A stretch of 64,000 nucleotides of DNA from positions 310,001 through 374,000 of the forward strand of contig JAUFOR010000008.1 of assembly GCA_040285745.1 (NCBI GenBank), given 5' to 3'. Below are positions 2,125 through 19,587 of the stretch, piece by piece. Both the position numbers and the translations under genes were made by a program. Below the pieces are notes generated by a model. The model was not told the DNA's origin, did no database searches, and was given only the letters and a program-made list of their open reading frames with translations. Source of the stretch: Barthelona sp. PCE (lineage: Eukaryota). Within the stretch, counting starts at the first letter, position 1, and each line of letters opens with the position of its first letter.

Positions 2125-2520
2125 TGACTACAACGAATCATGTAAAAGTTGAATTATGGAAACCAAGGCTTTTTGGTGTAAGTGAATATTTAGACGAAAA
2201 ATGTTTGTGGTGTTAGTCACAAAATTGAAGGATTGTGGTTCAAAATCTGCATCATCTCATTGAATGGGTAGTTTTCCAAATCCCATTTTTAGAAACCTGT
2301 GCAGGTACATCATTTGCAGTGTTTCGATAAAAAATGAGAAATTGGATTGGGAATACTGATATAATTTGCATAAATTAAGGAAGTTTTAGAATGGGCTTAT
2401 TTAACATACCACGGTAATGCCGATATATATACATCAAAATGTGTTTTTAATTGTCTTATGTGTCGTATAAGCAGCTTTTATAACAAAACAAATCTTGTTA
2501 TAACAAATATCACTCTTTCA

Positions 2521-3222
2521 ATGGATCCTTTTGACGAGGTTGCGACAGACGTTGACACAGGGTTGTCTGAGATCGTCAACGATTTGGTTTACTTAGAAAC
2601 AAGTCCTCCTTCAAGCCAAATGGAGATCAAAGAACAAATTTTACAAACACTTGAGGATGCTGGTGAAGATCTAGATGAGCTAAAGCGTGCCCTAGATGCC
2701 ATGAAGCAAGATCCTAGTAAGTTTCCTCTTTTAAATTCAGACATCATAAGGGATCGTGAGCGAATGATTAAATCGATGGAGGAGCGCTATAAGAATGTGA
2801 AAAATAGGGCAGCCCACTTCAGGATCAAAGTTCAAAACACACCACAAGCTGCAAAACCACAAGTTTCTTCAAAGTACGCAAAATATGAGCAAGATCAAGA
2901 TGAAGAACATCAGAATTATGTTGATCAGTACGAAGACCAGGTGGTTGAGGTGCTTGAGAAGGAAGAAATTGTCCTGACAGAGATAAATGATCAAGTAACA
3001 ACCATTAATGAAGTAGCGAAGATGATTAAGGATGAGCTTGATGTTCATGATGATATTATCACCAACATAGAGACAAAAACACTCACATTGAACGATCGTT
3101 TATTAAATGCAAGTGATAAAATTGATCAAGTAATCAAAATTTCAAAGAAAAGTAAGTATTGTTTAATAATTATGCTAATGATGGTTAATGTGTATCTCAT
3201 TTACAAAATAATGTTGGGGTAA
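2521..3222 (+). CDS. STX6: Syntaxin-6/Tlg1-like Qc-SNARE
   Basis: N-terminal DPFDEVATDV resembles Syntaxin-6_N. C-terminal SNARE heptads and a tail-anchor TM. Start placed at the ATG preceded by CTCTTTCA. Confidence 0.8.
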   Translation: MDPFDEVATDVDTGLSEIVNDLVYLETSPPSSQMEIKEQILQTLEDAGEDLDELKRALDAMKQDPSKFPLLNSDIIRDRERMIKSMEERYKNVKNRAAHFRIKVQNTPQAAKPQVSSKYAKYEQDQDEEHQNYVDQYEDQVVEVLEKEEIVLTEINDQVTTINEVAKMIKDELDVHDDIITNIETKTLTLNDRLLNASDKIDQVIKISKKSKYCLIIMLMMVNVYLIYKIMLG

Positions 3223-3248: not shown

Positions 3249-5279
3249 TTATCGAGATAAATCGAAAACACAAGCTTTAAAATCATCTAAGTTGCTTGTA
3301 TCAGTAATAATCATCAGTTCACGAATAACAGCAAGCATTTCTTCAAAGTTCTTTGACATCTCCAATAACTTTTTAACTAAAACAGGTAGTTGTTGAGCTG
3401 AACTAACGCCGGAAACTTCTAACAATTCTTTGATAAGACGAACATGTTCCATTAGCGTTTCCCTCTCATTGACGAGGGTTTCGACGCGTGCTTCACTTTG
3501 TTCCATACGTGTAATATTCTTGAAAGATCCCTCAACTATTGACGTGAACTGACGCATCAATTCAGCACTACTTGCGCTTCCGTCCATATTCACACAACTC
3601 TTAAGTGACTGTAACACATTAGTTTGCTCACGCAGAGCTTGGTAGATCTCAGCAAGCTTTGGATATGCACCATCCTTATTTTTAATATCAAAAAGTGAAC
3701 AATAGTAGCTGAAAAATTCACGTAAATATTCATCAGTAACATCACTAAAGTTAATCTCTCCATCTGAATCGAATTTTGGAACAAATTTCTTTGATTCAAT
3801 AAATTTATGATATACTTCAAGTAAATTATCGATTTCAGTAAGTATTTGGGGTGAAACATTAATAATTTTCTTTGATTTTGCCGTTATTCTATTGAATATG
3901 CCTGATTGTGTTACTCTTTCATCGATTTTTGTTAGTAACACATGATTATCAAACACAACTCGTGCTTTCTTAATAACTTTTGGTAATTCCTCTATATCGT
4001 CCACCTTGCACAATTCACAAAGTTCTTGGAGGAATGCTCTTATCTTAGGCACACTGTTCACAACAAGACCAAGATTCTGCACGCCAATTAACAGTTGTTC
4101 TGGACGGCATTTCATTTGTAAACATAAGTCTCGAAGTAATTGCTCGCAATGCTCTCGGGAGAACTTCGCTATATTATGTAAGCCAAGCTTATACACTTCC
4201 CGATCCTGTTTCATTTTCTCTCTTGTGGTTGATGTATGAGGTTCAACAGGAACATAAGCAATTAGTTCTTCATCCACTTCATCCTCTAACAACAGTTCTA
4301 ATCTAACAATTTCTTCATCTTTTTCCTTGAGTTGGGCACGTGTTGGCCTGTTGATGAGCTCAGTTTCAATATTTTTCATTTGTGTTCTTAAATGAGTAAT
4401 TGTATTCCTCAGCTCCATAGAATTTTCCTTCTCTGCCGTTAAACTGTCCTTCTTCTCGTTGTAATCCTCTCGAAGATCCTCCAACTGCGTCTCCAACTGT
4501 GCTTTCTCTACCTTCAAAAGGGCAACAACTCGTGGTACTTCAAGATTTCCAGTTATTGTTGACGCTGGTAAAACTCCTTCTTCTAACTGTGCCTGTCTAT
4601 CAAGAAGGGAGTTGATTTTGCGACGCATGGTTGCCTTGATCACTTCTTCATCTTCACTATCAGTTTTTTCAGATTGAGATAACTCACTTACACGACTCTT
4701 TAACATATCATTCGAGCGTTCATATCTCCTTATTGTCTCCATCTGTTTGTCCACGAGTGCATTTAAACTGTCCTTATCTCTCTCAAGGTTTTCAATTCTT
4801 TTTTCCTGAACTTCAATTTCGAAATCTACATCATTAGTCTTCAACTGTTCATAATTCTTAAACAGACGAACAAAGTTCTTGAACAGGTTGCCCTCTGACA
4901 AGTCACTGAAATCCATTTTTAGTTTATCTGCCAAAAGATTCCAATTAACGATATCCTCTTTTAACTGTGTTGCTCCTTCAATAAAGAGCTTTCCAATCAC
5001 TTGCCTGGGGTTGCGGGACGTGGCAACAACCGATTTCTCGAATTCTTGCCCCTCAGTAATGGGAATACGTTCTGTTAGAGAATATGTTGCGTTTCTTATG
5101 GGACTAATGGTTTCTGCAGTGATTGCTGGTCTGGTGGCGGACGATATCGCGGAGAGCGCAGGGGTGGTGAGAACAGAAGTCGTTGTTACAGTCTCTGAAA
5201 TAGGTGTATCGAATGGTAAGAATGAAATTGTGCTCTCAAGCTCCTTCAAGAGATCTGGGGATGGTAATCGTTTAGACAT
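3249..5279 (-). CDS. CEP70: Centrosomal protein CEP70-like
   Basis: Long coiled coil plus C-terminal YYCSLFDIKNKDGAYPKLAEIY, similar to the CEP70 LFDV...GVYPRMNEVY motif. Start MSKRLP chosen; upstream ATG at 5342 is possible. Confidence 0.7.
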   Translation of the reverse strand: MSKRLPSPDLLKELESTISFLPFDTPISETVTTTSVLTTPALSAISSATRPAITAETISPIRNATYSLTERIPITEGQEFEKSVVATSRNPRQVIGKLFIEGATQLKEDIVNWNLLADKLKMDFSDLSEGNLFKNFVRLFKNYEQLKTNDVDFEIEVQEKRIENLERDKDSLNALVDKQMETIRRYERSNDMLKSRVSELSQSEKTDSEDEEVIKATMRRKINSLLDRQAQLEEGVLPASTITGNLEVPRVVALLKVEKAQLETQLEDLREDYNEKKDSLTAEKENSMELRNTITHLRTQMKNIETELINRPTRAQLKEKDEEIVRLELLLEDEVDEELIAYVPVEPHTSTTREKMKQDREVYKLGLHNIAKFSREHCEQLLRDLCLQMKCRPEQLLIGVQNLGLVVNSVPKIRAFLQELCELCKVDDIEELPKVIKKARVVFDNHVLLTKIDERVTQSGIFNRITAKSKKIINVSPQILTEIDNLLEVYHKFIESKKFVPKFDSDGEINFSDVTDEYLREFFSYYCSLFDIKNKDGAYPKLAEIYQALREQTNVLQSLKSCVNMDGSASSAELMRQFTSIVEGSFKNITRMEQSEARVETLVNERETLMEHVRLIKELLEVSGVSSAQQLPVLVKKLLEMSKNFEEMLAVIRELMIITDTSNLDDFKACVFDLSR

Positions 5280-5398
5280 CCTTGCTGAACGAGTAGCACG
5301 TGGTGAAAAAAGTGTAAAAAGGTGTAACAAGACTTTGTACATTACTGTCCTTTTATTTTTTAAAGAAAACTATTATCAGTGAGTGCAATTGTGCATTT

Positions 5399-6477: not shown

Positions 6478-7029
6478 CTAAATACGTGTAGCATCATCTA
6501 CACTTGGGGTTTGAGGATGGCTCAGCAACCTGTTTGGTATTGCCCATCTAAACGCTGAACCTAATTTTGTGATTCTGTTTATCCAATCAGGTGTGTTTCT
6601 TCCAGTTAGGATAAATGCTAAAATCTGTGAGAAATGGTTGCAATTTCGGTCCAGTAGATGATAGGAATTTCCTAACCATGACTTTCCCAGGGCACTTACC
6701 ATTTCCAATACATTAAGCTTTGATAGTTCTGTTCTTCCCAAATATATGCTGCGGTTAAAGGTCACCAGACCCGGTGGGCATTTGGGTTTGGTTGAAAAAA
6801 TACCAGTTATTGAGTAAGCATGTCCGCCAAATGCAAATTCACTGTCAAAAACTTCAATAGCTGTATGAAAAGCCCCAATTCCCAATTTCTGTAGAACCCT
6901 GTTGGCATTTGTTAGGTTATAAACGTTTAAATAGACTGAATTCAAACATTTCCCTTTCATAGCACGTTCTGACTGGTCTTGATCCCTTAAAGGTTGTGTT
7001 GTTTCTGCTGAAGATTGCTCTTCGGGCAT
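6478..7029 (-). CDS. PPPDE/DeSI peptidase (deubiquitinase/desumoylase)
   Basis: VYLNVY, GAFHTAIEV (catalytic His) and YHLLDRNCNHFS (catalytic Cys). Confidence 0.93.
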   Translation of the reverse strand: MPEEQSSAETTQPLRDQDQSERAMKGKCLNSVYLNVYNLTNANRVLQKLGIGAFHTAIEVFDSEFAFGGHAYSITGIFSTKPKCPPGLVTFNRSIYLGRTELSKLNVLEMVSALGKSWLGNSYHLLDRNCNHFSQILAFILTGRNTPDWINRITKLGSAFRWAIPNRLLSHPQTPSVDDATRI

Positions 7030-7230: not shown

Positions 7231-10200
7231 TTATTGAAAACGCTGCATGCGATCATGTACCTGCTCCAATGTTATCTGCTGGATGCTTGCGACGCTGCAC
7301 TGACCAAAATGCCCACAATGACCAAGCGACAGACACGAGAAGCAGAACTCGCAGTTACATGTGGGGCACGCCATACTCTTGCACCCATGGCTGTGCTCAG
7401 TGGGTGTCAGACAGTTTGGACATACGCGAACAGATGGAACATTATCAATTTGGTTAAACACAATCGTCTTCAGTGGCGCATTCTTCAGTCGGTTGTTGAG
7501 CTCGTCAACATCTTGTTGAGTCCACTGTGAGAGACGCTGCACGATAAGAAGCTTGAACTCGTTTGGGAGGATGCCGCGGATGGCAAGCGGCAGTCCCTCA
7601 CGAACACGTAAAATGTTATTGGGCAACCTCAGTGTATGATCACAAAGAGCAATTGAGGGCAGCATTGTGTCGTCTGGTTGTAGGATGACGGTGAATGAAT
7701 GCAATTCTGGTGAGCTGTTGAGCCAATACACGAATTGCAGCATATCGAGCGAGTTGAATCCTTGCACCACCTCTGTAAAAGCTTCGCGCACGTTGTTAGG
7801 AACCACATCGCCGAACTCTAGCGTAGCCAAAACATGCTCGGCAGTGAAGCGAGGAGGTCCACACAAAATCGTCTTCACCTCTTTGAATGTGAGTGTAACA
7901 CTTAATTCTCTTAAAAGAAGCTGAGAATGAAAGCACTCATGAATGACATGTGACAAATTCGTCCACTGATTGGAAAACTGCAGTCTAGCAAATTCAAAAA
8001 ATTCATTAATATTATCTGAAGCTACTAGCTTATCTTCTCCACCAAAAAAGTTAAAATTCAGATTTCTCTCACGTAACATGCGTAATATTGCTGCAGATTC
8101 GTTTGGAAAAACCCTAGCAAAAACATTAGGCTCCATTAATTTGTCAAAATCATTACTAAGAGCATTTAAAAAGAATTGACTCAGTTGTGTATCATCTACT
8201 GGAGCCTGAAACATTAAACAACAGCTAATGAATCCACATAAAGCTCTTATAAAGTCCAAGGAAGATGTTAAATTGATACTATAATGATCTAAAACTCTAT
8301 TCTCGAAAATATATTCTGTAAACTGCATTAATGAGAGTGGTTCTTCATTGGGAATCTCGATTGTGGCACCAAAATACTCTGTTGCATCAATTAAAGTGCT
8401 TGTATCTTTGAAAACACGAGTAAAAAAGTCATAAAAACATTCATCTTCATCTTGAATAATGTTTGCTTCACCTACACGGCCTTCACTATCCCGCACCTGT
8501 CCCTGTTTGGTAACAACAAACTGTACAGTCTGTTTTCTGATGAGTCCCAAACGATCACTGCTTCCATCTCTAACGGACCACTGATAACTAACTAACTGAT
8601 ATATTGATGGTCTGAGCATGGGATCTTCAGCCAGACATCTTTGAATAATTTCACAGTGCAAAGATTGATCATCAGAGAATATTGTTGATAATGTCATTCC
8701 GACCGAAAAAATATCACTTTCAAAGGTGATATTCTCGTTTCTAAGCACCTCAGGCGCCATAAAACCCACCGTTCCAACAATAGAATTACTTAAAGTTGAT
8801 GAAGAGTCAACACTAACACCGAAATCGCACAATTTCACTTTAGGATTGAAACCATTTTCATCACAGAAAACAAGAATGTTCTTTGGCTTTATGTCACGCA
8901 GCATTATACCCTTTGCATGCATGGAAAACACACAAAGTACGAGCTGTTGCGCTATTGAATTTTTTCTTACCAAATCAACACCTGGAAACGAAATCAAATA
9001 CTGATCAAGATCATAAGGTGCGCGTTCAAGCTCTATACAAACAAATTTGACTGAAGCAGAGCCATCCCTCATCTCAGGAACCAGTACTACATCCTTTAAC
9101 TCAACTGTGCACTGATCCATTTTGGTGAGTATGCGCAGTTCTCGTCTTAGCGCCTTTAGATTGGCATCTCGGTTTCCCTTAAACCTCTCAGATACACATA
9201 TACACTTAACAAACCGATCACCATTAGGTTCACAACAGTTGAATAAACCAGCATCTTCTAAACTTCCTTGCATATAGTGATCAAAGTTAATGATCTTGGG
9301 GACGAATGGGAACCTGATGGAAGATAATTGTAATTCGGTTAAAGCTGAGGTTAAATTGACTGACAAAGAATATTCACAAATTTTTCCATTCAATTCTTTT
9401 AGATATTCATAATAATTCATACACAATTCTTTTTTGGCACAAGAAAAATAATCCCCTTTCAGAGATGTGATGTCATCTATGTGACGTTGAACTTGATCTC
9501 TAATTGTGTACAAAAGATTAAAATCACAACCTTCACCGTCAGCTGATTTTAACAAAATGTCCACGATGAATCTATCTATATCATCTATAAGCTCATATTT
9601 ATCCACCATAATCGCTGCTACTGAGCGGGCATCAAGCAGCACGGATAATGACGTGTTAAAGAAAAAATCAAAGCATCTATCCACATTTTTCAATTTTTTC
9701 AGTACAGATGCATGCTTCTGTTCATTGACTGTAATGTCAAGCAAAGGGAATGCGGTAGCTAACTCCTCAAAGCGAGTATTAAACAGTACAGTGAGTGATT
9801 CAGTGATGCCGTGATCTGATACGATATTATCCATACATCTTACAAACTTAATAGCCTCGTCTAGTTCGCGTATGTGGCCCGCCATATCCTTAATCTCAAT
9901 ATATGTACCCAACAAATGTGCTACATCCTTACAAGGCACAATTAACTTACAAACATCGGTGTAACATCTGTTGGTGCATTGAATTAATTCAGAATACTCC
10001 ACATTGCCTGAATTCGGCACTGTTCGGCTGATTGCATCGAGAGCAATGGTTAGTCTCGACTTCATTTGAGCATTCTGTGCTAATACCAATTGTTTCATTG
10101 AAAGTTTCATTTCTTCAATCTCAACCTTTAACTTGAGGTGTTCAGACTTTAATTTCTCATGGTCATTCCTTAACAGATCATATCTTTTCTGTAAACAAAT

Positions 10201-11388
10201 ATTATCATCTTTCATACTGTTGATATCAAGTTGTACATCAATGAAGTTTCCTTTAACAATATAATCGCGACCAAATCCATCATCCTTGCTCCACTCAACC
10301 ATTAAAACCACATCATCATCAAATATCACACGATACAAACAACTATGTTCATGCACCACTTTTGCAATTCTACCAGAGTAGCTATTATAATGCTGATAAT
10401 GGTGTTCATCGTCCGAGCAATACACAACCTTTGAGGTACAAAACACCAACATTGCATTATCAGGCAATGAGATTTTAAAAAATGAAGTGTCGGCGGTGAT
10501 GAACGTATTCTTGTGATACCATAAACTTCCTATTTCTGAATGTACGCAGACAAACCTATCCTCGGAAACCGTATAGTTAAAACAACATTCAGCAAAACGA
10601 ACTGGTATTTCAGAAATTTTTTTTCTATTCTCAACAAGAAATAAATGTGCTATGTTCACTTCTCTAATAACAAAGTGGCGGTTGTCTGGGGTTATACAAA
10701 TGGACTGAACATCATATTCTTCACTATAAAACAATTTCTTTCTTGGGTATCGACTGAATAAAACCACTTCTGTATTAGCAAAACACATAAAATAATCTTT
10801 GGTCACGCAACAATTCCTAACAGTGGTGTGTGGCGTCCTAAACATTTGATGTGAGCTTAAATTACCTGTTGATAACCAAAAATAATAGCCAATATCGTAA
10901 ACAATCCTCACTAAATTCATTTTCTCTCCTTCATAAACAATTCCCTTATCACAAACATATATTAGCTCTGTTTCTGTTCTATATTTCCAGGTATATATGC
11001 TACTATTTGATATTATTCCAACATAATCAGAATCAATGCCACAGCTAACACAATCTACCGCTAGATCGGTTGAAAAAGTCTCGCCTGTGATTAAATCAAC
11101 TACATTCAGCAGTCCCGAATCAACATAGACCAGTATATTACCAGAATTGTTCAGATACAAATAGTCACAATTGGTGACTGGTGCGTTATATATCATACCA
11201 TCACTGTCAATGGTTGGATGACACACAAAAAGGGTGCCTTCAGAATTACCGACTGCAAAAGTGCTCAAATCCCTCGAAAAACATCTTTTTGATCCCATTC
11301 TTTGGCAAGCAATTCTAGTCTCCTGTAATACATCATTGCTGATGGTGTTGAGAACCACCGCGTCTTCAGTCAATTGACTGATTAGCAT
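7231..11388 (-). CDS. Multidomain protein: beta-rich N-terminus, coiled coil, Ser/Thr kinase, HECT-like E3, C-terminal RING2/IBR-type zinc finger
   Basis: Kinase motifs LRDIKPKN, DFG, GTVGFMAPE, SDIFSVG. HECT-like LTFKEVKTILCG and LPSIALCDHTLRLP. Zinc finger CPNC..GCKSMACPTCNCEFCFSC. Start MLISQL chosen; upstream ATG at 11445 abuts the previous gene's stop. Confidence 0.8.
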   Translation of the reverse strand: MLISQLTEDAVVLNTISNDVLQETRIACQRMGSKRCFSRDLSTFAVGNSEGTLFVCHPTIDSDGMIYNAPVTNCDYLYLNNSGNILVYVDSGLLNVVDLITGETFSTDLAVDCVSCGIDSDYVGIISNSSIYTWKYRTETELIYVCDKGIVYEGEKMNLVRIVYDIGYYFWLSTGNLSSHQMFRTPHTTVRNCCVTKDYFMCFANTEVVLFSRYPRKKLFYSEEYDVQSICITPDNRHFVIREVNIAHLFLVENRKKISEIPVRFAECCFNYTVSEDRFVCVHSEIGSLWYHKNTFITADTSFFKISLPDNAMLVFCTSKVVYCSDDEHHYQHYNSYSGRIAKVVHEHSCLYRVIFDDDVVLMVEWSKDDGFGRDYIVKGNFIDVQLDINSMKDDNICLQKRYDLLRNDHEKLKSEHLKLKVEIEEMKLSMKQLVLAQNAQMKSRLTIALDAISRTVPNSGNVEYSELIQCTNRCYTDVCKLIVPCKDVAHLLGTYIEIKDMAGHIRELDEAIKFVRCMDNIVSDHGITESLTVLFNTRFEELATAFPLLDITVNEQKHASVLKKLKNVDRCFDFFFNTSLSVLLDARSVAAIMVDKYELIDDIDRFIVDILLKSADGEGCDFNLLYTIRDQVQRHIDDITSLKGDYFSCAKKELCMNYYEYLKELNGKICEYSLSVNLTSALTELQLSSIRFPFVPKIINFDHYMQGSLEDAGLFNCCEPNGDRFVKCICVSERFKGNRDANLKALRRELRILTKMDQCTVELKDVVLVPEMRDGSASVKFVCIELERAPYDLDQYLISFPGVDLVRKNSIAQQLVLCVFSMHAKGIMLRDIKPKNILVFCDENGFNPKVKLCDFGVSVDSSSTLSNSIVGTVGFMAPEVLRNENITFESDIFSVGMTLSTIFSDDQSLHCEIIQRCLAEDPMLRPSIYQLVSYQWSVRDGSSDRLGLIRKQTVQFVVTKQGQVRDSEGRVGEANIIQDEDECFYDFFTRVFKDTSTLIDATEYFGATIEIPNEEPLSLMQFTEYIFENRVLDHYSINLTSSLDFIRALCGFISCCLMFQAPVDDTQLSQFFLNALSNDFDKLMEPNVFARVFPNESAAILRMLRERNLNFNFFGGEDKLVASDNINEFFEFARLQFSNQWTNLSHVIHECFHSQLLLRELSVTLTFKEVKTILCGPPRFTAEHVLATLEFGDVVPNNVREAFTEVVQGFNSLDMLQFVYWLNSSPELHSFTVILQPDDTMLPSIALCDHTLRLPNNILRVREGLPLAIRGILPNEFKLLIVQRLSQWTQQDVDELNNRLKNAPLKTIVFNQIDNVPSVRVCPNCLTPTEHSHGCKSMACPTCNCEFCFSCLSLGHCGHFGQCSVASIQQITLEQVHDRMQRFQ

Positions 11389-11447
11389 AAAAACCTTGTA
11401 AGGGATAAAAATGTTACAACAAAAAAAATCAAAAAAAAACCACATTT

Positions 11448-13319
11448 TTACAATTCTGGAACTTCAAAAGCTACTTTTTCTCTCGTAGTTAGAATGATAT
11501 CTTCCTTAGTGATGGAAAGCTTACCGTTAATAGATAAATCGAAAGTATAAGCATAATACTTTCTTGTCCACCCAGAACCCTTCTTCCAAATTAAAAACTC
11601 TTTTGATTTAGGGAATAATCCAAAGCCTCCAATATTTTGATACATTTCAGGTAGATGCTCCCATTTAAAAATGATTGTTGGTTTTTCAACCATATCTAGT
11701 GAATAAACCACGTTGTCGTCCACTAAAAAGTGATAATCCGTCAGCCACACAGCCTTTTTACCTTCAATTTTATCATTACGAATGTTGAGCTGCAACAAAG
11801 TACGATTGAAATCAGCCACTCGAATATCACCATCAATCTTCAGCAAAACACGCGCGCCAAAACTCGTTGTATCAATTACTTCAATCTTAGCATCGTGTGT
11901 GCCCTTGCTTGCAGACTCACCTTGGCTCAGAAGAGGCAATGAAATGTTGTAAAAAACAGTTTCACCTTCCGAAACAAGATAAATAACTCCAGTTCCAATA
12001 AATCCTCCTTCAAAGTACGTATCATTACAGATCTTGTATTCGTTGACATAAACACCATCGTCGTGGACATGAAGATACTTCTCGTCATTAAAAACACCAA
12101 GATACAAAGGTCTTGTCATCTTATATTTCTCAGTAACCTCCTGTGAATGTACTAAGTCATACTTCACCTGATACATCCAACGCTCGTCAGTCCCCTCCTT
12201 CCTCATGACAAGGTGATATGCTTCATCAAAAGCTGAGTAAGAAATAAATTCAGCTTTCTTACTATCCTTATTAGTAATTCGATTGTCAACAATTGCAAAA
12301 AATTGTTCTTCATTAGAATTATAAATTGCATTAGCATCACAATACTTGATATTGTTGCCTTGGAATGTAAAACTGCTCTCATCAACTGATGCCATAACAC
12401 ATGTATAAGCATCTTCACTCATCATGACAGAAAGAGGTGTCAAGATCATGTAAGGTGCGTTTAAAATAATGTTGTCAGTGGAATAGCGGGTATGTTTGGG
12501 ACTACATGCTTCTTCTGCATTGCGGTAAGTTAAAGTTTTGGTTGTTGGTTCATAAGAATAAAAATTACTGCTGATAATGACCTCAAAAGCAAAGCGTCCT
12601 TCCTCTCCTGGGTGGTATGTGAGCAACAAAGCATTTGTATCCTTATATTTATGACCAATTGACTCTTTAAAAATTTTCTCAACCAGCTCAGCGGATTCAA
12701 AGATGGAAGTACGTTTTGTAGTCATGTCTATCAGCTTAAACTGCTTTTTAGGCATGTCCAATTTAAAAACCAAATTATTGATGTTTGCAAAACTTCCATA
12801 AATAATTTTTGCCTCTAGACTAACATCAATATCTTCTTCAACAACTGTTAAGACTAATTTATCTTCGGATGTGATCCGGTAGTTCATAAGTTTGATATCT
12901 TTGACGCCATCATGATTCTTAAGGAGCACAATGTTACGACAAAAACAAGTGTTGGAAGTATTTACCATAACACAATCTTCTTCAATTTGTTCAGATACTC
13001 TCGTTAACAAGTTACCATGGTATATAGAGCGCTTACCAGTTGAAGAATCCTTAACATTGTAAAGAATGTGGAACTCTGAAACAACCAGGTATCCTAAAAT
13101 TTCTAATGTTGGATGAGTAGAATCAAGCACGTTATAGTTGACATCGAACTCCGAGTCTTCGTCTTCGACCGAAGAAATGCTTAACATTGACCCATTATAA
13201 GAGGATGTAAAATAAAAGTTTGGATCAACACAAATACCCATGTCAATAACGTCTTGGTATTCTGGGTAAACGTGATTAGCCTCAAAAACGAGTCTTTTCG
13301 AACCCCAAACGCTAGTCAT
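11448..13319 (-). CDS. Hypothetical beta-strand-rich (propeller-like) protein, 623 aa
   Basis: Long ORF of short hydrophobic/aromatic strands; no recognised motif. Confidence 0.65.
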   Translation of the reverse strand: MTSVWGSKRLVFEANHVYPEYQDVIDMGICVDPNFYFTSSYNGSMLSISSVEDEDSEFDVNYNVLDSTHPTLEILGYLVVSEFHILYNVKDSSTGKRSIYHGNLLTRVSEQIEEDCVMVNTSNTCFCRNIVLLKNHDGVKDIKLMNYRITSEDKLVLTVVEEDIDVSLEAKIIYGSFANINNLVFKLDMPKKQFKLIDMTTKRTSIFESAELVEKIFKESIGHKYKDTNALLLTYHPGEEGRFAFEVIISSNFYSYEPTTKTLTYRNAEEACSPKHTRYSTDNIILNAPYMILTPLSVMMSEDAYTCVMASVDESSFTFQGNNIKYCDANAIYNSNEEQFFAIVDNRITNKDSKKAEFISYSAFDEAYHLVMRKEGTDERWMYQVKYDLVHSQEVTEKYKMTRPLYLGVFNDEKYLHVHDDGVYVNEYKICNDTYFEGGFIGTGVIYLVSEGETVFYNISLPLLSQGESASKGTHDAKIEVIDTTSFGARVLLKIDGDIRVADFNRTLLQLNIRNDKIEGKKAVWLTDYHFLVDDNVVYSLDMVEKPTIIFKWEHLPEMYQNIGGFGLFPKSKEFLIWKKGSGWTRKYYAYTFDLSINGKLSITKEDIILTTREKVAFEVPEL

Positions 13320-13456: not shown

Positions 13457-16400
13457 CTACAAATCACACATTTGACTCTTCATTAACATTAGTTCCATGT
13501 TCAAGAGTGTCTTTGTCGCATCAGACAAAGATGCATCACACATTCGCGTTAATAAAAATTCAATTTTTGTTTTGAAAAACATTCGCTCATAAAGAGCTGC
13601 TTCACTGAAGAATCTAGCATCATATTTACCATCATTCTGAAGCGCCACCCAGCTCACGAAATCTAAATGAGCGTTAAGTTCCAGCTCCTTAATCATATGC
13701 TCAGTCGAAAAGTGAATGTGCTTATAAACATCTGCTGCGACAGGATCAATTAGTTCTAATCGCTGCATCTCGCTCATCTCCTCTCCCATCGTGAGTGCAT
13801 ACATCTCTCCTGGTGTTTTGTCAAACATATCGTAGGTTCTCCTAAAATAGTCAAAATCTAATGGAGTGTCAAAATGAACACTTTGCACGAAATCACTAAG
13901 CTGCTTTGAATCTATATGCTCGTTGATACAGCACACATGGCCGTGACGTAGCTGTTCATAATCACTGTTTGTGCCCTGAGGTTTTAGCTTACTCTCAAAG
14001 GTATTGAACATGTGTTTGTCATAGTCGTACGGAGCTGGATGATCACCAACACGCCATCCACCGGACTTCCAGTCATAGTGGTATGTGTGCTGTGGACATC
14101 CGCCGCTCCAGGCCAGTTTTGAAGAAAAGGTGTATGTGCTAGTGAAAATAGCCTGCTCAACAGTTTTTGTATCAATATAAGGGGTATTTCGCACCTGGCC
14201 AAGAACAGCTACATGTGACCGGGTTGCTATAGCAGGACCCTTCAATGCAACGTTTGAAGAAGACGCATGATGTATCACATTAGGGTGCTTTGTGGAAAGA
14301 TGTAGTTTCAGAGGCCAATGACCACTCGGTATCGCAACACATGACGGGCAGAAGGAGTGCCTGGTGAGTGGTACAGGGAAACACAAACTCAGTTGGTACA
14401 ACAAAACACCAATCGATTGGAATCCAGTGGGGCACATAGAAACACCAAAGTATGCCGTTAACCGCATGATGATATGTGTTATTCCGGCCTTAAAGACTCG
14501 TTTCTCACCACGTGTCAAAGACAAGTGGTTAATAGCACTCGACTTAAATAGTAGAAGTAGGTATCCTGCAATATCCAACTCACAAGGATCCAACATATCG
14601 CTCAATATCGTAAGCATGCGAACTGCTAACATAAATGTTTCCACAACGTCTTGCTTTGGTTGAACGGAAGGCAATGAGTTACTATGCGTATAAAAATGAT
14701 CAACAGCTAACTGTAACGGTGTTTTTTCCTCTATAGCGCTGAAATCCACGCTCATGAGACTAGGTATCGCGTCAGGCGTGAATACATGAGATGAAATCGT
14801 TCGCATGAAATTGTCAACGGCGCTTTTCAGTTCCAGAGAAGATTTTTTCTGCCTGGGAAGCAGGTGAAGCATCTGGCGCGCTCTCTGTGGATCGGAAACA
14901 GAAATGGAGCATACTTGAGACAGTATCATCATTGCCGAGTGTAAAAAGTAACCGTGCTTTGCGTAGTGCATCAGTAAATATAGATACGGTGGGGTGAGGG
15001 GAATGTCTCCCACCAGTTCAGGTAGGAACTCAGGCCGCAAAGAACAAAAGAACATAATGATATCTGGGTGCGTTTGAATTAAGCTAAAAAGAAACACACA
15101 CATTTCACTGAACTGATCTATAGCAATCATTTCTGCACGTTTAAGTGATATTGACATCGGATCAAAAGAATACAAACAATACTGAAGTGCTGCAAAGAAA
15201 ACTGTAACATTTCTCTTTCCAAATAAAATACCAGTGTTATTTGCCACCCGTACAGCAGCTCCGCAAAGGAATGAGACCAAAATATCATAAAAAGAAGAGA
15301 CTTCAGCATTTGTAATATGAATGTCACTTAATTGAACAACCTCCATGAGTCTTAAAAAGTCAAGCTTCATCACATTCATTTCCAGTGGCATGTCCACATT
15401 GGCCCACGTGTTGCGTGATATACAAGCCAACAAATTGGATAAGAGATAAACAATACTGTTACGATTAGAAACAATCAATGAAACATGTTTCTCCTCTCTC
15501 TCATCCAATAGTGATGCATGTGAGCTCAGGAAGCTCTTAAACGGGCTCGAGGGGCTGGGTTGATACGTTTGAATGAATTCTTCAGAGAGGTGATTCAAAA
15601 AGACAATTACATCAGAAATAAACGCAGTGTGCGACCCAACCGGATAGTCTCTCATTCTGGGTAGCAGGGAAGCAACGACAGACACAACAATGGTGTGTTC
15701 TGAGTCAGATAATACTTTAATAGCGTTGAAAATAACTTTTGCAGTATCAATATCAATAAACATATTTAATTTAATAATATATTGCACAAGAGCGCCTAGA
15801 GTGAAGACACGGCGTGAAACCAATAAATGTGATGGATTATCCATTAAATCAGATAGACATAAGCGAACATAAAAAAGTGCTTGACTGGTAGACACTGTTA
15901 TATCCAGCCTACGCATGTGTTCCAGCTTCGGCATCGATGCAAGACATATAGAAATGAGCGTCTCCTGCAAAGGACTCCATCCCATAAGCGGTTTGTTAGG
16001 GAAGGTATCGATTGTGACTACATCAAGTGAACTGAGCTGTTTTTTTGTCGGGGACTGGAAGTGTGAACGGACTTCACGTGACCTATTGTGCACATCTGGT
16101 GCTGAAATAAAATCACTCAATAATGAAGGTATACCGTACAAGACATTAGGTAAAATTGAAACGAGTGCCTGTGATAGTCCACATTTAACAACACATCGTT
16201 CAATTCTTGACGAGGAAACAGAGTGCAACCGTGTGAGAATGGAAGCAAGATGATGCCAGATGACTGCAAGACGAGATAGTGTTGAAAATGATTGTGAGTT
16301 AGCTGGAACGTACACTTCACCTTTAGCATTCATGAACGCAGGCCCCACTGTGCTGTCTGTCAATCTAGGATTGTCTAGATTCTTCTTCCTAATATCTTTT

Positions 16401-17266
16401 TCTGCAATTTTTGTGAAATTCATTTCAATGAAGCTTTCAGATAAATCAAGTACAGATACTATGACAAATGCGCGCAATACAGCAACAACAATTCCATCAG
16501 ACATGATTGCTTTAATGTCAGAAACGGTACATGATAGAACCAATTGAGTGTACAATCTCTGAGCACAAACAACAGCAAAATCAAGTGGATGGCAGTGGGA
16601 AGAACGTGCAATGCAATGCGTACCGTAAGCAAGCAACTCTATAACTGATTCATGAGGGAAATTTAGCATGCTAGATATTTGAAGCAGTGTTGTCAAAGAA
16701 AACTCTCCAACTGCCTCTGGGTTATGCTCTGTCACCACTGAACGTAAATTTATCAAGAGTTCATTATTTGTACAATTTAACAATTCACCATTTTGGTTCA
16801 ATATTGTTTTAAGGCTAATAAACGTAAAATATTCTCCTGAAAGATCTAGGCCAAGAAACTCGCTTGTCTGCTCGCCTATACGGGTTAACAATCTCTTATT
16901 TGCCTCAGCAATCTCCATATTCATCTCTTCCATACGTTTAACGAGATCTGAATGAAAACTTGGGGATACGTGATGGTGCAGGCTGGCAGTGCTTGACGTG
17001 TACGGGCTCAGAATCTTTGCTTTGTTAAAAAAATCTGATGGCACCTCTTCAAAAAAAGTATCTGACTCCATGGATCGTACAAACGATTCTTCTTCGCTTG
17101 TTACTGTATCAAACGAATCCGATAGGAAGCTCAGTGAGCGCTGAAGTTGCAGTCCTTCCGTCACGTTTGTGAGATTATGGGGAACAGAATCACATGGTTC
17201 TGATGCGTTCCTGGGGCCCTCCTTTTCTTTGTGTGGTTTAGATATCTCAAAATCTGGCCCTAGCAT
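13457..17266 (-). CDS. Large hypothetical protein, probable alpha-solenoid (ARM/HEAT-like) core
   Basis: 1269-aa ORF with Leu-rich amphipathic helices; family not recognised. Confidence 0.7.
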   Translation of the reverse strand: MLGPDFEISKPHKEKEGPRNASEPCDSVPHNLTNVTEGLQLQRSLSFLSDSFDTVTSEEESFVRSMESDTFFEEVPSDFFNKAKILSPYTSSTASLHHHVSPSFHSDLVKRMEEMNMEIAEANKRLLTRIGEQTSEFLGLDLSGEYFTFISLKTILNQNGELLNCTNNELLINLRSVVTEHNPEAVGEFSLTTLLQISSMLNFPHESVIELLAYGTHCIARSSHCHPLDFAVVCAQRLYTQLVLSCTVSDIKAIMSDGIVVAVLRAFVIVSVLDLSESFIEMNFTKIAEKDIRKKNLDNPRLTDSTVGPAFMNAKGEVYVPANSQSFSTLSRLAVIWHHLASILTRLHSVSSSRIERCVVKCGLSQALVSILPNVLYGIPSLLSDFISAPDVHNRSREVRSHFQSPTKKQLSSLDVVTIDTFPNKPLMGWSPLQETLISICLASMPKLEHMRRLDITVSTSQALFYVRLCLSDLMDNPSHLLVSRRVFTLGALVQYIIKLNMFIDIDTAKVIFNAIKVLSDSEHTIVVSVVASLLPRMRDYPVGSHTAFISDVIVFLNHLSEEFIQTYQPSPSSPFKSFLSSHASLLDEREEKHVSLIVSNRNSIVYLLSNLLACISRNTWANVDMPLEMNVMKLDFLRLMEVVQLSDIHITNAEVSSFYDILVSFLCGAAVRVANNTGILFGKRNVTVFFAALQYCLYSFDPMSISLKRAEMIAIDQFSEMCVFLFSLIQTHPDIIMFFCSLRPEFLPELVGDIPLTPPYLYLLMHYAKHGYFLHSAMMILSQVCSISVSDPQRARQMLHLLPRQKKSSLELKSAVDNFMRTISSHVFTPDAIPSLMSVDFSAIEEKTPLQLAVDHFYTHSNSLPSVQPKQDVVETFMLAVRMLTILSDMLDPCELDIAGYLLLLFKSSAINHLSLTRGEKRVFKAGITHIIMRLTAYFGVSMCPTGFQSIGVLLYQLSLCFPVPLTRHSFCPSCVAIPSGHWPLKLHLSTKHPNVIHHASSSNVALKGPAIATRSHVAVLGQVRNTPYIDTKTVEQAIFTSTYTFSSKLAWSGGCPQHTYHYDWKSGGWRVGDHPAPYDYDKHMFNTFESKLKPQGTNSDYEQLRHGHVCCINEHIDSKQLSDFVQSVHFDTPLDFDYFRRTYDMFDKTPGEMYALTMGEEMSEMQRLELIDPVAADVYKHIHFSTEHMIKELELNAHLDFVSWVALQNDGKYDARFFSEAALYERMFFKTKIEFLLTRMCDASLSDATKTLLNMELMLMKSQMCDL

Positions 17267-18313: not shown

Positions 18314-19576
18314 TTACTCATCATCTGAGCTTACATCCGATATTTCCGACTCTTCCTCGTCCTCTTGAGCCTCTACCTCTCCTCCTGCACGCACTATATC
18401 TCTTTCACGAACCTTCTCCGGATCAAAACTGACTTCCAAAATCTCAGCCACTCCTTTAACGCTTTTGGGGATATTTACGACCCTGTCGTGTTCTACAATC
18501 TCATCTTTGACACGAGGAATATCTAAACCAGCTTTTTGTAAAAGTTTCACTGCTTTTGCTCTAAAAAGTCGATATTCACTGATGGGTGCATCTCTTCTAT
18601 CATCAAACAGAGAGAAGACCTCGTTCCTTATACTCTGGAACTTCCGAACTTCTTCATTGGCCAGTTCCTCCATATCATCTCTATTATAATCGAAACCTGA
18701 GCTGGGATACAACTTTTTCCAAACCAACTTTTGGTCTCCGTTCAACTGACGCCCCTCAGACTTGTCTTTCATAATGTCTTCAAGTTGTGAATATACTGCA
18801 TCAACATTATCACTCATTTGCGATACTCGTTGAGACAATGGAACACTTGCAACCAAAGCAGTAAACCTAATCCTCTCATTCACACTCAATTCATCTGTAC
18901 TATACTCATTTTCTGCAACTTTATCCAACAAAATTAAATCATTTTCGATCGTATTGGAATAACGGAACCGATCTGGTCGAATTCGTTGCCATCTTTGACT
19001 GTAGCTGCTCAGTGACTTGGGGGAGAAAAATAGACCAATTTCCGTTACTGGTACACTTTCTCTAAACATTGTTCCATCAGAAAAAAAAACTTTCATTAAA
19101 GCTAACAGGCGAGCATCTTCTTCCATCGTAAATCCCAATCTGATGTCTAGCAACTCTCCTTCTGAGTTCACCATAATACATTTTAAAGTAGACATTCGTG
19201 TTCGACATGCCTGAACAGGTCTTTGCATTTCATGCGAAATGACTCGAAATTTTGATCCATGCTCGCTGTGTAGATCCCACAGTTTCTTGTCCTCCTGGGG
19301 CGTCCATTTTCGACCCAGCGCTCCTTTGTACTGTGCGTATCTGGACCGAATAAATCTATGTAGTTGAAACGGTGATCTACTTGGTAATCTTTCACATATC
19401 AGTGTGAACAGCTTGCTTGATGTTGGTGTGGACTTCTCATTGCATAAATTAAAGCGATCTTCTTCTGTAAAACCCAAATGAGTTAATGCCTCGACAAAAG
19501 TTGACTCAACCGCATCTATTTCAGCTGGAGTAAATCTCCCGCTAACTGTGTGATCGTTGTCCCACTGTTTTGTCAT
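18314..19576 (-). CDS. Myb-repeat protein, Reb1/TTF1/DMTF1-like
   Basis: GRFTPAEI, KWTPQEDKKLWDLHSEHGSKFRVISHEMQR and FTMEEDARLL Myb repeats; acidic tail. Confidence 0.75.
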   Translation of the reverse strand: MTKQWDNDHTVSGRFTPAEIDAVESTFVEALTHLGFTEEDRFNLCNEKSTPTSSKLFTLICERLPSRSPFQLHRFIRSRYAQYKGALGRKWTPQEDKKLWDLHSEHGSKFRVISHEMQRPVQACRTRMSTLKCIMVNSEGELLDIRLGFTMEEDARLLALMKVFFSDGTMFRESVPVTEIGLFFSPKSLSSYSQRWQRIRPDRFRYSNTIENDLILLDKVAENEYSTDELSVNERIRFTALVASVPLSQRVSQMSDNVDAVYSQLEDIMKDKSEGRQLNGDQKLVWKKLYPSSGFDYNRDDMEELANEEVRKFQSIRNEVFSLFDDRRDAPISEYRLFRAKAVKLLQKAGLDIPRVKDEIVEHDRVVNIPKSVKGVAEILEVSFDPEKVRERDIVRAGGEVEAQEDEEESEISDVSSDDE

Positions 19577-19587
19577 CAAAAAGACTG

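What the first reader, a model, noticed from the sequence alone, without database searches (positions are those of the whole stretch)
7231..11388. One polypeptide fusing a kinase, a HECT E3 and an RBR-type RING2/Rcat, with two candidate transthiolation cysteines
Seen: beta-rich N-terminus, coiled coil, then a kinase (~8580-9260) with LRDIKPKN, DFG and APE intact but a degenerate Gly-loop. Next is a HECT-like region (~7600-8300): FIRALCGFISCCL, KLVASDNINEF, TFKEVKTILCG, FTEVVQGF..LQFV, LPSIALCDHTLRLP (Cys codon 7642-7644). It ends with CPNCLTPTEHSHGCKSMACPTCNCEFCFSC (Cys codon 7381-7383). Established: HECT E3s use LP.A.TC...L.LP, and RBR RING2 domains use the Cys of GCNHM. Here that His is Ser, and no RING1 is visible. 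Inference: a sensor-kinase-dual-ligase cassette, possibly relaying ubiquitin from HECT to Rcat or acting as a defence effector. I do not know this architecture from characterised proteins.
Basis: partly seen in the sequence, partly recalled or inferred. Interest (0 to 1): 0.8.

Follow-up and report, generated by a model that had tools for sequence, protein, structure and literature searches.

The report
Kinase–HECT–Rcat fusion ligase gene family
A tiny-genomed marine protist encodes a family of large proteins that join a protein kinase, a complete HECT ubiquitin-ligase domain and the catalytic zinc finger of a second ligase class, an arrangement our searches found in no other organism and that could show how two ubiquitin-carrying cysteines cooperate.

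Summary
Window 7231-11445 (-) is one uninterrupted 1404-codon ORF of Barthelona sp. PCE, a metamonad. Its order is beta-propeller-like N-terminus, coiled coil, helical region, protein kinase, HECT domain, helical linker, RBR RING2/Rcat-type zinc finger.

- **Kinase:** Pfam Pkinase, E 2.3e-25.
- **HECT:** Pfam misses it in this protein. An AlphaFold model built from family sequences only (pLDDT 82.7) matches HECT ligases alone: Foldseek 3e-10, and all 19 chains with VIA Z>=5. hhalign to HECTD1 gives 95% probability with the catalytic Cys aligned.
- **Rcat:** the finger aligns best with the RING2/Rcat of ARIH2, ARIH1, CUL9 and parkin (E about 1e-5). Cys1355 sits on their catalytic Cys, but the +2 His is Ser, and there is no RING1.

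At least 22 paralogs exist, all in this species. Fifteen of the 22 keep both cysteines. The N-terminus is the most variable part and the linker plus Rcat the most conserved.

Which cysteines carry ubiquitin, and any HECT-to-Rcat relay or defence role, remain inference. I rate this a new variant of known kinds and moderately to highly interesting.

The parts
7231..11445 (-). Whole ORF, 1404 codons plus stop (stop at 7231-7233). The database protein starts at Met20 (11388).
10246..11388 (-). Residues 20-400: beta-rich, beta-propeller-like N-terminal region. It is the most variable part of the family (18% identity to 9 paralogs).
   Evidence: identity. Weak Pfam beta-propeller/WD40 hits in paralogs (the best is P0016 Beta-prop_EML_2, E 1.1e-7, below its cut-off). 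ESM Atlas nearest clusters are beta-propellers, 0.90-0.92, a lead only. No Pfam or PDB sequence hit for this protein itself.
10036..10233 (-). Residues about 405-470: coiled coil.
   Evidence: Heptad-like K/E/L-rich sequence. Weak leucine-zipper hit HALZ 418-447, E 0.021.
9286..10035 (-). Residues 471-720: helical region of unknown family (30% identity to paralogs).
   Evidence: no PDB sequence match; no Pfam.
8566..9285 (-). Residues 721-960: protein kinase domain. Lys747, Glu769, Asp851 (LRD in place of HRD), Asn856 and Asp874 (DFG) are present, and APE is present. There is no Gly-rich loop.
   Evidence: Pfam Pkinase E 2.3e-25, 747-924, profile 30-192/263. DAPK3/MEK1 PDB hits at E about 4e-12. 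Residue table.
7564..8568 (-). Residues 960-1294: complete bilobal HECT domain (N-lobe and C-lobe).
   Evidence: AF2 model pLDDT 82.7 from a family-only alignment. Foldseek: all 41 listed rows are HECT ligases, best 3.3e-10. VIA-align: all 19 chains with Z>=5 are HECT, Z 9.0-12.9. hhalign to HECTD1 95.2%. Pfam HECT above cut-off in paralogs P0006 and P0159.
7642..7644 (-). Codon of Cys1268, the HECT catalytic-cysteine position.
   Evidence: Aligned to the Cys of the HECTD1 ...NTCVHYLKLPEY motif. Cys in 16 of 21 assessable family members.
7555..7557 (-). Codon of Phe1297, which I read (from recall of the '-4 Phe' rule) as the counterpart of that residue of canonical HECT ligases. Here it is internal, 107 residues before the end.
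   Evidence: Phe in all 16 members that keep the HECT Cys and in none of the 5 that lost it. Paralog P0012 ends ...GFNAL, which puts this Phe at -4.
7426..7563 (-). Residues 1295-1340: two-helix linker, the most conserved segment (76% identity to paralogs).
   Evidence: (helices 336-347 and 351-362 of the model).
7291..7425 (-). Residues 1341-1385: RBR RING2/Rcat-type zinc finger (C-x2-C-x9-C-x4-C-x2-C-x4-C-x2-C...C-x-H...C).
   Evidence: Pfam IBR 25.5 bits (cut-off 24.3) on the 445-aa fragment, and 10 of 10 members. Profile hits to the RING2/Rcat of ARIH2, ARIH1, CUL9 and parkin at E 9e-6 to 1e-4.
7381..7383 (-). Codon of Cys1355, aligned with the Cys of GGCNHM in the ARIH2 RING2. The +2 residue is Ser1357, not His.
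   Evidence: HMMER alignment. Cys in 16 of the 18 members that have the finger; +2 is Ser in 13 of 15.
7234..7290 (-). Residues 1386-1404: conserved C-terminal helix (...TLEQV..RM..FQ).
   Evidence: helix 434-444 of the model.

Best explanation
This is one real, intact gene of Barthelona sp. PCE. It is the earliest-branching member of the core clade of a species-restricted family of at least 22 genes. The encoded architecture is variable beta-propeller-like head, coiled coil, helical region, protein kinase, complete HECT domain, conserved two-helix linker, RBR-type RING2/Rcat finger.

Shown here: the domain identities, their order, and which residues are conserved.

Inferred mechanism:
- The protein is an active thioester-forming ubiquitin ligase.
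- The HECT N-lobe docks a charged E2, and Cys1268 takes ubiquitin.
- The canonical free HECT C-terminus is replaced by a 107-residue extension, so the last transfer step is altered.
- The appended Rcat offers a second free cysteine, Cys1355. It receives ubiquitin from the HECT cysteine or from the HECT-bound E2, and passes it to targets held by the variable N-terminal head.
- The kinase regulates or primes. It is dispensable in some paralogs.

My odds: architecture 0.95 or more; HECT catalytically active about 0.7; Rcat cysteine catalytic about 0.45; an ordered HECT-to-Rcat relay about 0.3. The confidence given for this field (0.4) is for the mechanism as a whole, with both cysteines cooperating.
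For: Gene and architecture:
- Uninterrupted 1404-aa ORF.
- 21 collinear paralogs.

Kinase: Pfam E 2.3e-25 with Lys, Glu, Asp, Asn and DFG-Asp all present.

HECT:
- Family-only AF2 model, pLDDT 82.7.
- Foldseek: 107 hits at E<=1e-3, and all 41 listed are HECT.
- VIA: 19 of 19 chains with Z>=5 are HECT. HUWE1 C-lobe Z 12.4, rmsd 2.3 A over 97 residues. Tom1-UBE2D2-Ub Z 12.9, rmsd 5.7 A over 315 residues.
- hhalign to HECTD1: 95.2%, E 2.8e-8, Cys on Cys.
- The six non-family hits are all HECTD1.
- Pfam HECT at E<=1e-3 in 4 of 21 scanned sequences, 2 of them above the cut-off.

HECT under selection as a catalytic unit: Phe1297 is kept in 16 of 16 members with the Cys and in 0 of 5 without it.

Rcat:
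- The best PDB matches are RING2/Rcat domains, and Cys1355 aligns on the catalytic Cys.
- Cys1355 is not needed as a zinc ligand by the spacing, yet it is kept in 16 of the 18 members that have the finger.
- The linker and Rcat are the best-conserved parts, 76% and 69% against 18% for the head.

Both cysteines are kept in 15 of 22 members. On the tree this state spans the deep split between P0015/P0016 and the core clade (node 98/98), with later losses.

The ligase C-terminal carboxylate contributes to aminolysis in HECT E3s (JBC 2026 review PMC13196369, passages read). That makes a C-terminal extension mechanistically meaningful.
Against: - No biochemical or expression data exist; everything functional is inferred.
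- The Rcat lacks the +2 His of the Cys/His/Glu triad. Substituting triad residues inactivates parkin, HHARI and HOIP in vitro (Spratt et al. 2014, PMC3940038, passages read).
- There is no RING1 or separate IBR.
- Pfam HECT does not hit this protein itself.
- The HECT lacks the His two residues before the Cys that is important in NEDD4; the sequence here is I-A-L-C-D-H.
- P0012 keeps a HECT Cys without any Rcat, and P0013 keeps the Rcat Cys without the HECT Cys. The two sites are therefore not strictly interdependent.
- Co-loss of both sites in P0017/18, P0019 and P0020 amounts to few independent events on long branches.
- The model's pTM of 0.56 gives no reliable HECT-Rcat geometry, and I could not read coordinates to measure the Cys-Cys distance.
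- The kinase has no Gly-rich loop and Leu in place of the HRD His, so its activity is uncertain.
Confidence: 0.4

Rival explanations
1. A HECT-only ligase. Cys1268 is the sole catalytic site. The C-terminal Rcat-like finger is a non-catalytic zinc module for structure, ubiquitin or substrate binding, or autoinhibition.
For: - The Rcat +2 His is Ser in 13 of 15 family fingers.
- There is no RING1 to bring an E2 to the finger.
- The structural matches of the finger are weak and fall on IBR regions of parkin and HOIP, Z 4.0-4.3, within the noise range the tool states.
- P0012 has lost the finger, keeps the HECT Cys, and ends with the Phe at -4 like a canonical HECT.
Against: - The best sequence matches are RING2/Rcat domains, not IBRs, with Cys on the catalytic Cys.
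- The non-ligand Cys1355 is kept in 16 of 18 fingers, and the finger plus linker is the most conserved part of the protein.
- In the wider clade of 126 similar fingers, the +2 His is already replaced in 36, so His is not obligatory in this clade.
Confidence: 0.35
2. An Rcat-only ligase. The HECT domain serves mainly as an E2-docking platform that replaces RING1, and ubiquitin goes from the E2 directly to Cys1355.
For: - P0013 keeps the Rcat Cys while its HECT Cys is Val.
- The best whole-domain structural match is the E2~Ub-bound state of Tom1.
Against: - The HECT Cys and the -4-type Phe are kept together in 16 of 16 members, and both are lost together in 5 of 5. That argues for selection on HECT catalysis itself.
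- P0012 has a HECT Cys with no Rcat.
Confidence: 0.1
3. Mainly a kinase or scaffold signalling protein. Its ligase modules are catalytically inert relics (pseudoenzymes) in this copy.
For: - P0017, P0018 and P0019 keep all five kinase residues although both ligase cysteines are gone.
- Both ligase modules deviate from their canonical catalytic environments: no free C-terminus, and no Rcat His.
Against: - This copy keeps both cysteines, the Phe, all the zinc ligands and the acidic residue two before the sixth Cys.
- The ligase part is far better conserved than the rest.
- Five paralogs have degenerate kinases but four of them keep both cysteines (P0005, P0008, P0009, P0015).
Confidence: 0.1
4. 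An artefact: a misassembly or gene-model fusion of separate kinase, HECT and RBR genes.
For: The assembly is Nanopore-based (Williams et al. 2024, PMC11316075, passages read). No reads could be laid on the region here.
Against: - It is a single stop-free frame of 1404 codons.
- The same order of domains occurs in paralogs on at least 7 other contigs, judged by the different longest-contig lengths.
- The full-length alignment is collinear.
Confidence: 0.02

Closest known systems
Canonical HECT E3 ligases (nearest by sequence: HECTD1; by structure: Tom1, HECTD3, E6AP, HUWE1, NEDD4 family)
   Same: Complete bilobal fold. The catalytic Cys sits in the same loop (hhalign). The LP..C..L.LP motif is present, and so is a conserved Phe in the place I read as the -4 Phe.
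   Different: The domain is not C-terminal: 136 residues follow the Cys. It is very divergent, 11-16% identity to whole-domain matches (up to 23% for isolated C-lobes), and Pfam misses it in this protein. It is fused to a kinase upstream and an Rcat downstream.
RBR ligases (parkin, ARIH1/HHARI, ARIH2, HOIP, CUL9): the RING2/Rcat module
   Same: Same zinc-ligand spacing, with a free Cys at the catalytic position. An acidic residue lies two before the sixth Cys, as with parkin Glu444.
   Different: There is no RING1, no separate IBR, and the +2 His is Ser. The finger belongs to a distinct clade with the signature EH...CK[H]M...FCF.C, seen in bivalves, foraminifera and other protists.
Divergent HECTs with protein kinase domains in Naegleria gruberi and Ectocarpus siliculosus ('GL-Bikonta' group of Grau-Bove et al. 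2013, PMC3673628; passages read)
   Same: A kinase plus a highly divergent HECT in one protein of a protist.
   Different: Those proteins were not retrieved by any search here, so homology beyond domain content is untested. No Rcat is mentioned for them in the passages read.
MYCBP2/PHR1 RING-Cys-relay ligase (recalled; cited as ref. 8, Pao et al. 2018, in the reference list of PMC13196369)
   Same: Works-like analogy only: two cysteines in one polypeptide that could pass ubiquitin by transthiolation.
   Different: No homology. MYCBP2 uses a RING plus a tandem-cysteine domain, not a HECT plus an Rcat.
CUL9 and the ARIH1-cullin-RING 'E3-E3' assemblies (recalled; CUL9 Rcat matched)
   Same: Two ligase modules of different classes combined, with an Rcat as the final ubiquitin carrier.
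   Different: The partner module there is a cullin-RING scaffold without a catalytic cysteine. Here it is a HECT with its own cysteine.

Membership tests
HECT ubiquitin ligases | Bilobal HECT fold (N-lobe plus C-lobe) | tested here: met
   AF2 model from a family-only alignment, pLDDT 82.7. Foldseek best 3.3e-10, with all 41 listed rows HECT. VIA: 19 of 19 chains with Z>=5 are HECT and cover model residues 1-335.
HECT ubiquitin ligases | Sequence homology to HECT domains | tested here: met
   [quoted passage not shown] Pfam PF00632 is above its cut-off in paralogs P0006 (28.5 bits) and P0159 (24.8 bits), and below it in P0013 and P0157. There is no Pfam HECT hit at E<=1 for this protein itself. 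PDB profile hits to HECT chains are only E 0.086-1.2.
HECT ubiquitin ligases | Catalytic cysteine in the C-lobe loop | tested here: met
   Cys1268 aligns with the HECTD1 Cys. Conserved in 16 of 21 assessable members.
HECT ubiquitin ligases | Domain ends the protein, with a short free tail and Phe at -4 (typical of the family; the rule is recalled, and Salvat 2004 was seen only in a reference list) | tested here: not met
   The Phe is conserved (Phe1297), but 107 residues follow it. This is why I file it as a variant. Paralog P0012 does meet the feature.
HECT ubiquitin ligases | Forms an E2-dependent ubiquitin thioester | not testable with these tools
   Needs biochemistry.
RBR (RING-between-RING) ligases | RING1 that binds the E2 | tested here: not met
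   No RING-type family is among the 8 Pfam families at E<=1 on the whole protein. The only Cys-rich cluster in the translation is at 1342-1383.
RBR (RING-between-RING) ligases | Separate IBR between RING1 and RING2 | tested here: not met
   A single IBR-type match at 1330-1376, one stretch.
RBR (RING-between-RING) ligases | RING2/Rcat finger with a free catalytic Cys | tested here: met
   The profile matches the RING2 of ARIH2 (E 3.8e-5), HHARI (1wd2), CUL9 and parkin. The Cys lies on the Cys of GGCNHM. Pfam IBR scores 25.5 against a cut-off of 24.3 on the fragment.
RBR (RING-between-RING) ligases | His two residues after the catalytic Cys (Cys/His/Glu triad; Spratt 2014) | tested here: not met
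   Ser1357. In the family, Ser in 13, Asn in 1 and Met in 1 of 15. The acidic triad position is kept (Glu1366).
Eukaryotic protein kinases | Pkinase profile above cut-off, with Lys (beta3), Glu (alphaC), catalytic Asp, Asn and DFG Asp | tested here: met
   90 bits against a cut-off of 31.7. Lys747, Glu769, Asp851, Asn856 and Asp874 are present.
Eukaryotic protein kinases | Gly-rich ATP-binding loop (GxGxxG) | tested here: not met
   The Pfam match starts at profile position 30. The corresponding sequence GSLEDAGLFNCCE has no GxGxxG in any of the 10 aligned members. Activity is therefore uncertain.

The most novel reading that the evidence does not exclude
A natural cis 'E3-E3' cysteine relay. 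Ubiquitin passes from an E2 docked on the HECT N-lobe to the HECT cysteine. It then moves by transthiolation to the Rcat cysteine, or the reverse. Both modules have lost their canonical aminolysis aids: the free HECT C-terminus and the Rcat His. The pair may therefore form one composite active site, possibly with non-lysine chemistry. The module would be deployed on a diversifying family of propeller-headed receptors in the smallest known free-living eukaryotic genome.
Probability: 0.3. Interest if true: 0.85.

Novelty: new variant of a known kind. Interest (0 to 1): 0.62.

Why it matters
HECT and RBR ligases are the two classical families that carry ubiquitin on their own cysteine. I found no described protein that joins a complete HECT domain to an Rcat. 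Literature searches found none. Database searches found the combination only in this species.

If both cysteines are active, the protein is a ready-made system for asking three questions:
- How is ubiquitin handed between thioester sites?
- What do the HECT C-terminus and the Rcat histidine really contribute?
- Can a HECT N-lobe substitute for RING1?

The family also matters for the organism. About 22 genes of roughly 4 kb each lie in a 10.2 Mb genome, described as the smallest for a free-living eukaryote (Williams et al. 2024, passages read). They combine a fast-evolving head with a conserved enzymatic tail. That pattern suggests a recognition function worth testing.

Tried and rejected
- **Own genome:** none is held.
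- **Further copies in the window:** tblastn of 11 family proteins found only this locus.
- **Upstream ORF 11448-13319 (-):** considered as a possible N-terminal part of the gene and rejected. It lies in another frame. Paralogs already align from about residue 23 of this ORF. No family protein matched it at E<=1e-5.
- **First AF2 model:** built from 10 sequences of about 60% identity, pLDDT 43.6, discarded.
- **Sequencing runs:** none was listed and no RNA holder was listed. Read laying was therefore not run, and expression and the start codon remain untested.
- **Complex prediction (HECT part against linker plus Rcat, with 2 Zn):** no answer, score 0.00. The tool did not use my alignment. It counts neither way.
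- **VIA-align on the whole model:** no clear match for the small Rcat part. Parkin and HOIP rows score Z 4.0-4.3, within the tool's stated noise.
- **PDB sequence search of residues 1-720:** nothing, best E 2.1.
- **Earlier findings of this scan:** none for this genome.
- **Literature:** searches for a fused HECT/Rcat, HECT/IBR or kinase/HECT architecture gave only generic mentions plus Grau-Bove 2013. The genome paper's main text has no occurrence of ubiquitin, HECT or kinase. Its supplements could not be seen and might list gene families.
- **Word-index searches outside the species:** only HECTD1 at E 0.12-0.63.
- **Limit of the exhaustive profile search:** only the best 150 of its 550 hits were listed. 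Weaker HECT or kinase-HECT relatives below rank 150 cannot be excluded. I do not know whether the libraries hold the proteomes of sister taxa (Barthelona sp. PAP020, Skoliomonas).

Full report
**What is in the sequence**

Window 7231-11445 on the minus strand is one stop-free frame of 1404 codons (translation, kept as P0001). G+C there is 36-40%. The two cysteine codons it named are exact: Cys1268 is 7642-7644 and Cys1355 is 7381-7383.

The database protein for this locus (P0002, 1385 aa) starts at Met20, which is 11388. Which ATG is used is not known.

The neighbouring 623-aa ORF at 11448-13319 is in another frame and is not part of this gene. Paralogs already align from about residue 23, and none matches that ORF at E<=1e-5.

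**Organism and family**

All full-length relatives are 'hypothetical proteins' of Barthelona sp. PCE, a free-living metamonad.

An exhaustive HMMER search used a profile of the C-terminal 445 residues against 1.84 billion representatives. It gave 550 hits at E<=1e-3, of which the best 150 were listed. Only the first 14 rows cover the HECT-like part. Apart from the window's own protein (listed without a name), all carry Barthelona sp. PCE names. From row 15 on, the hits are short proteins that match only the last 80 or so positions, the linker end plus the zinc finger.

With the cluster members found later, I count 22 family members, including this gene, one truncated copy (P0014) and one 212-aa fragment (P0158). 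They lie on at least eight contigs.

Only one copy is in this window. No relative was seen in any other organism. I do not know whether the libraries hold the proteomes of sister taxa, and hits below rank 150 were not shown.

**Kinase**

Pfam Pkinase matches residues 747-924 at E 2.3e-25. The best solved relatives are DAPK3 and MEK1/2 at about 4e-12.

The beta3 Lys747, alphaC Glu769, catalytic Asp851, Asn856 and DFG Asp874 are present, and so is APE. The HRD histidine is Leu. The Pfam match starts only at profile position 30, and none of the 10 aligned members has a GxGxxG loop. Activity is therefore plausible but uncertain.

Across 21 members with a kinase region:
- 15 keep all five residues.
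- 5 are clearly degenerate (P0005, P0008, P0009, P0015, P0020).
- 1 (P0157) has an alignment gap at the Glu column.

**HECT**

Pfam HECT gives nothing at E<=1 on this protein. The evidence comes from elsewhere:

| Test | Result |
|---|---|
| Pfam HECT in paralogs | P0006 28.5 bits and P0159 24.8 bits (cut-off 23.9); P0013 23.3 and P0157 21.7; 4 of 21 sequences at E<=1e-3, 2 above cut-off |
| 17-sequence family profile against PDB | Only twilight hits, but they are AREL1 (0.086), NEDD4 (0.43) and WWP2 (0.74), all collinear |
| Same profile against long proteins in the 5.8-billion set | All six non-family hits are HECTD1 (E 0.12-0.63) |
| hhalign of the family profile against HECTD1 | 95.2% probability, E 2.8e-8, 149 columns; ...PSValC..tLrLP... 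lies on ...PSVNTCVHYLKLPEY |
| ESM Atlas features for residues 975-1310 | 28 of 30 nearest clusters are HECT, score 0.91 (a lead only) |

The structural test was kept free of canonical HECT sequences. The first AlphaFold run, with 10 close paralogs, failed at pLDDT 43.6. The second used 17 family members down to 20% identity and reached pLDDT 82.7, pTM 0.56.

- **Foldseek against the PDB:** 107 hits at E<=1e-3. All 41 listed rows are HECT ligases, about 380 columns each, best 3.3e-10.
- **VIA-align, which does not lean on Foldseek:** 19 chains with Z>=5, all HECT, Z 9.0-12.9. Isolated C-lobes superpose at 2.0-2.5 A (HUWE1: Z 12.4 over 97 residues). The best whole-domain fit is the Tom1-UBE2D2-ubiquitin complex, at 5.7 A over 315 residues.

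**The zinc finger**

On the 445-aa fragment, Pfam IBR passes its cut-off (25.5 against 24.3), and it hits 10 of 10 members.

The family profiles match RING2/Rcat domains specifically:
- ARIH2 residues 296-340, E 3.8e-5
- the isolated HHARI RING2 (1wd2)
- CUL9
- parkin

In the printed alignment, cpncltpiehggaCksmkc lies on CPKCNICIEKNGGCNHMQC. Cys1355 is therefore at the catalytic position.

By spacing, the eight zinc ligands are filled without Cys1355, so it is a free cysteine. That assignment is my reading of the pattern, helped by recall of parkin's ligands.

The His two residues after it is Ser. That His is part of the Cys/His/Glu triad whose substitution inactivates parkin, HHARI and HOIP (Spratt et al. 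2014, passages read). The acidic triad position is kept as Glu1366. No RING1 or second IBR is detectable.

The finger's nearest relatives form a distinct clade with the signature EH...CK[H]M...FCF.C.
- 126 of the 136 listed non-family hits share the exact C-x2-C-x9-C-x4-C spacing.
- Position +1 is Lys in 111, and +3 is Met in 111.
- Position +2 is His in 90 and another residue in 36.
- Named members come from oysters, scallops and foraminifera, and one cluster holds an MMETSP transcript.
- Of nine I scanned, five show only IBR-type matches. None of the nine shows a RING family.

**Conservation pattern**

Identity of this protein to nine paralogs rises steadily along the chain:

| Region | Identity |
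|---|---|
| Propeller-like head | 18% |
| Coiled coil | 17% |
| Helical region | 30% |
| Kinase | 52% |
| HECT | 58% |
| Linker | 76% |
| Rcat | 69% |

Site by site:
- The HECT Cys is present in 16 of 21 assessable members.
- The Phe that I equate with the canonical -4 Phe is present in exactly those 16, and in none of the 5 that lost the Cys.
- The Rcat Cys is present in 16 of the 18 members that have the finger.
- Both cysteines: 15 members.
- HECT Cys only: P0012.
- Rcat Cys only: P0013.
- Neither: P0017, P0018, P0019, P0020.
- Not assessable: P0014.

I built a maximum-likelihood tree of the kinase-HECT region from 21 rows, leaving out P0158 as too short. It puts this gene at the base of a well-supported core clade (97/96). 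It shows the two-cysteine state on both sides of a deep node (98/98), with later losses. P0012 is nested among Rcat-bearing genes, so its lack of the finger is secondary.

P0012 ends ...GFNAL, three residues after that Phe, exactly as a canonical HECT would. P0019 and P0020 sit on long branches and their placement is unsure.

The kinase and ligase features are separable. Three members with dead ligase sites keep an intact kinase. Four with degenerate kinases keep both cysteines.

**How it most likely works**

Shown: the fold, the homologies, the order of the domains, and the residue conservation. Everything that follows is inferred.

The joint retention of the HECT Cys and its Phe argues that the HECT is a working thioester-forming ligase (about 0.7).

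[quoted passage not shown] Here 107 residues follow the Phe, so the last step must differ from the textbook.

The appended finger keeps a free cysteine at the Rcat catalytic position and is the best-conserved part of the protein. It lacks the His that mainly serves unloading in HHARI.

My preferred reading (about 0.3-0.4) is that the two cysteines cooperate. The HECT N-lobe recruits the E2, and ubiquitin visits both cysteines before reaching a target bound by the variable head. This is analogous to, but not homologous with, the MYCBP2 cysteine relay (recalled).

Nearly as likely (0.35) is that the finger is a non-catalytic accessory.

The variable head on a conserved enzymatic tail, repeated about 22 times in a 10.2 Mb genome (Williams et al. 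2024, passages read), fits a recognition or surveillance family. Nothing here tests a defence role.

**Comparison with what is known, and novelty**

The protein is a HECT-domain protein by fold and homology. It fails the usual 'HECT at the very C-terminus' arrangement.

It is not an RBR ligase, because it lacks RING1, a separate IBR and the catalytic His. It carries only an Rcat-type module.

Kinase plus divergent HECT has been noted in Naegleria and Ectocarpus (Grau-Bove et al. 2013, passages read). I could not retrieve those proteins to compare them.

I found no report of a HECT joined to an Rcat. The genome paper's main text never mentions ubiquitin, HECT or kinase, and its supplements were not available.

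I rate it a new variant of known kinds.

**What could not be done**

- No sequencing run was listed for the locus, so expression and read-level contiguity are untested.
- The complex prediction gave no answer.
- Model coordinates could not be read to measure the distance between the cysteines.

Noticed in passing
window 6481-7029 (-): The gene immediately downstream on the same strand, about 200 bp from this gene's stop, encodes a PPPDE/Peptidase_C97 domain protein (E 5e-36). From recall, that family is linked to deSUMOylating/deubiquitinating isopeptidases. Adjacency in a eukaryote is no evidence of a functional link.
   Followed up: partly
window 11448-13319 (-): A 623-aa ORF ends 2 nt before the first ATG of this gene's frame, and 60 nt before the annotated start. 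It has no Pfam family at E<=1e-3 and no match to the family proteins at E<=1e-5.
   Followed up: partly
proteins P0021-P0156 (hits; not in the window): A large clade of mostly short eukaryotic proteins (oysters, scallops, foraminifera, one MMETSP transcript) ends in an Rcat-like finger with the signature EH...CK[H]M...FCF.C. No RING family was detected in the nine I scanned. Some carry ubiquitin-like domains in front (P0029, P0042). One has a weak HamA-like match (P0085, E 0.002). I do not recall this clade being characterised.
   Followed up: partly
paralog P0012 (Barthelona sp. PCE, PCE1_002808): This paralog has secondarily lost the linker and Rcat. It terminates three residues after the conserved Phe (...GFNAL), which recreates the canonical HECT C-terminus. 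It is a natural control for the role of the extension.
   Followed up: partly
window 13460-17266 (-), 3252-5342 (-), 4-2124 (-): Three further long ORFs (1269, 697 and 707 aa) have no Pfam family at E<=1e-3. Recognisable neighbours are a syntaxin-6-type N-terminal domain (2458-3219 +) and a Myb protein (18317-19579 -).
   Followed up: no
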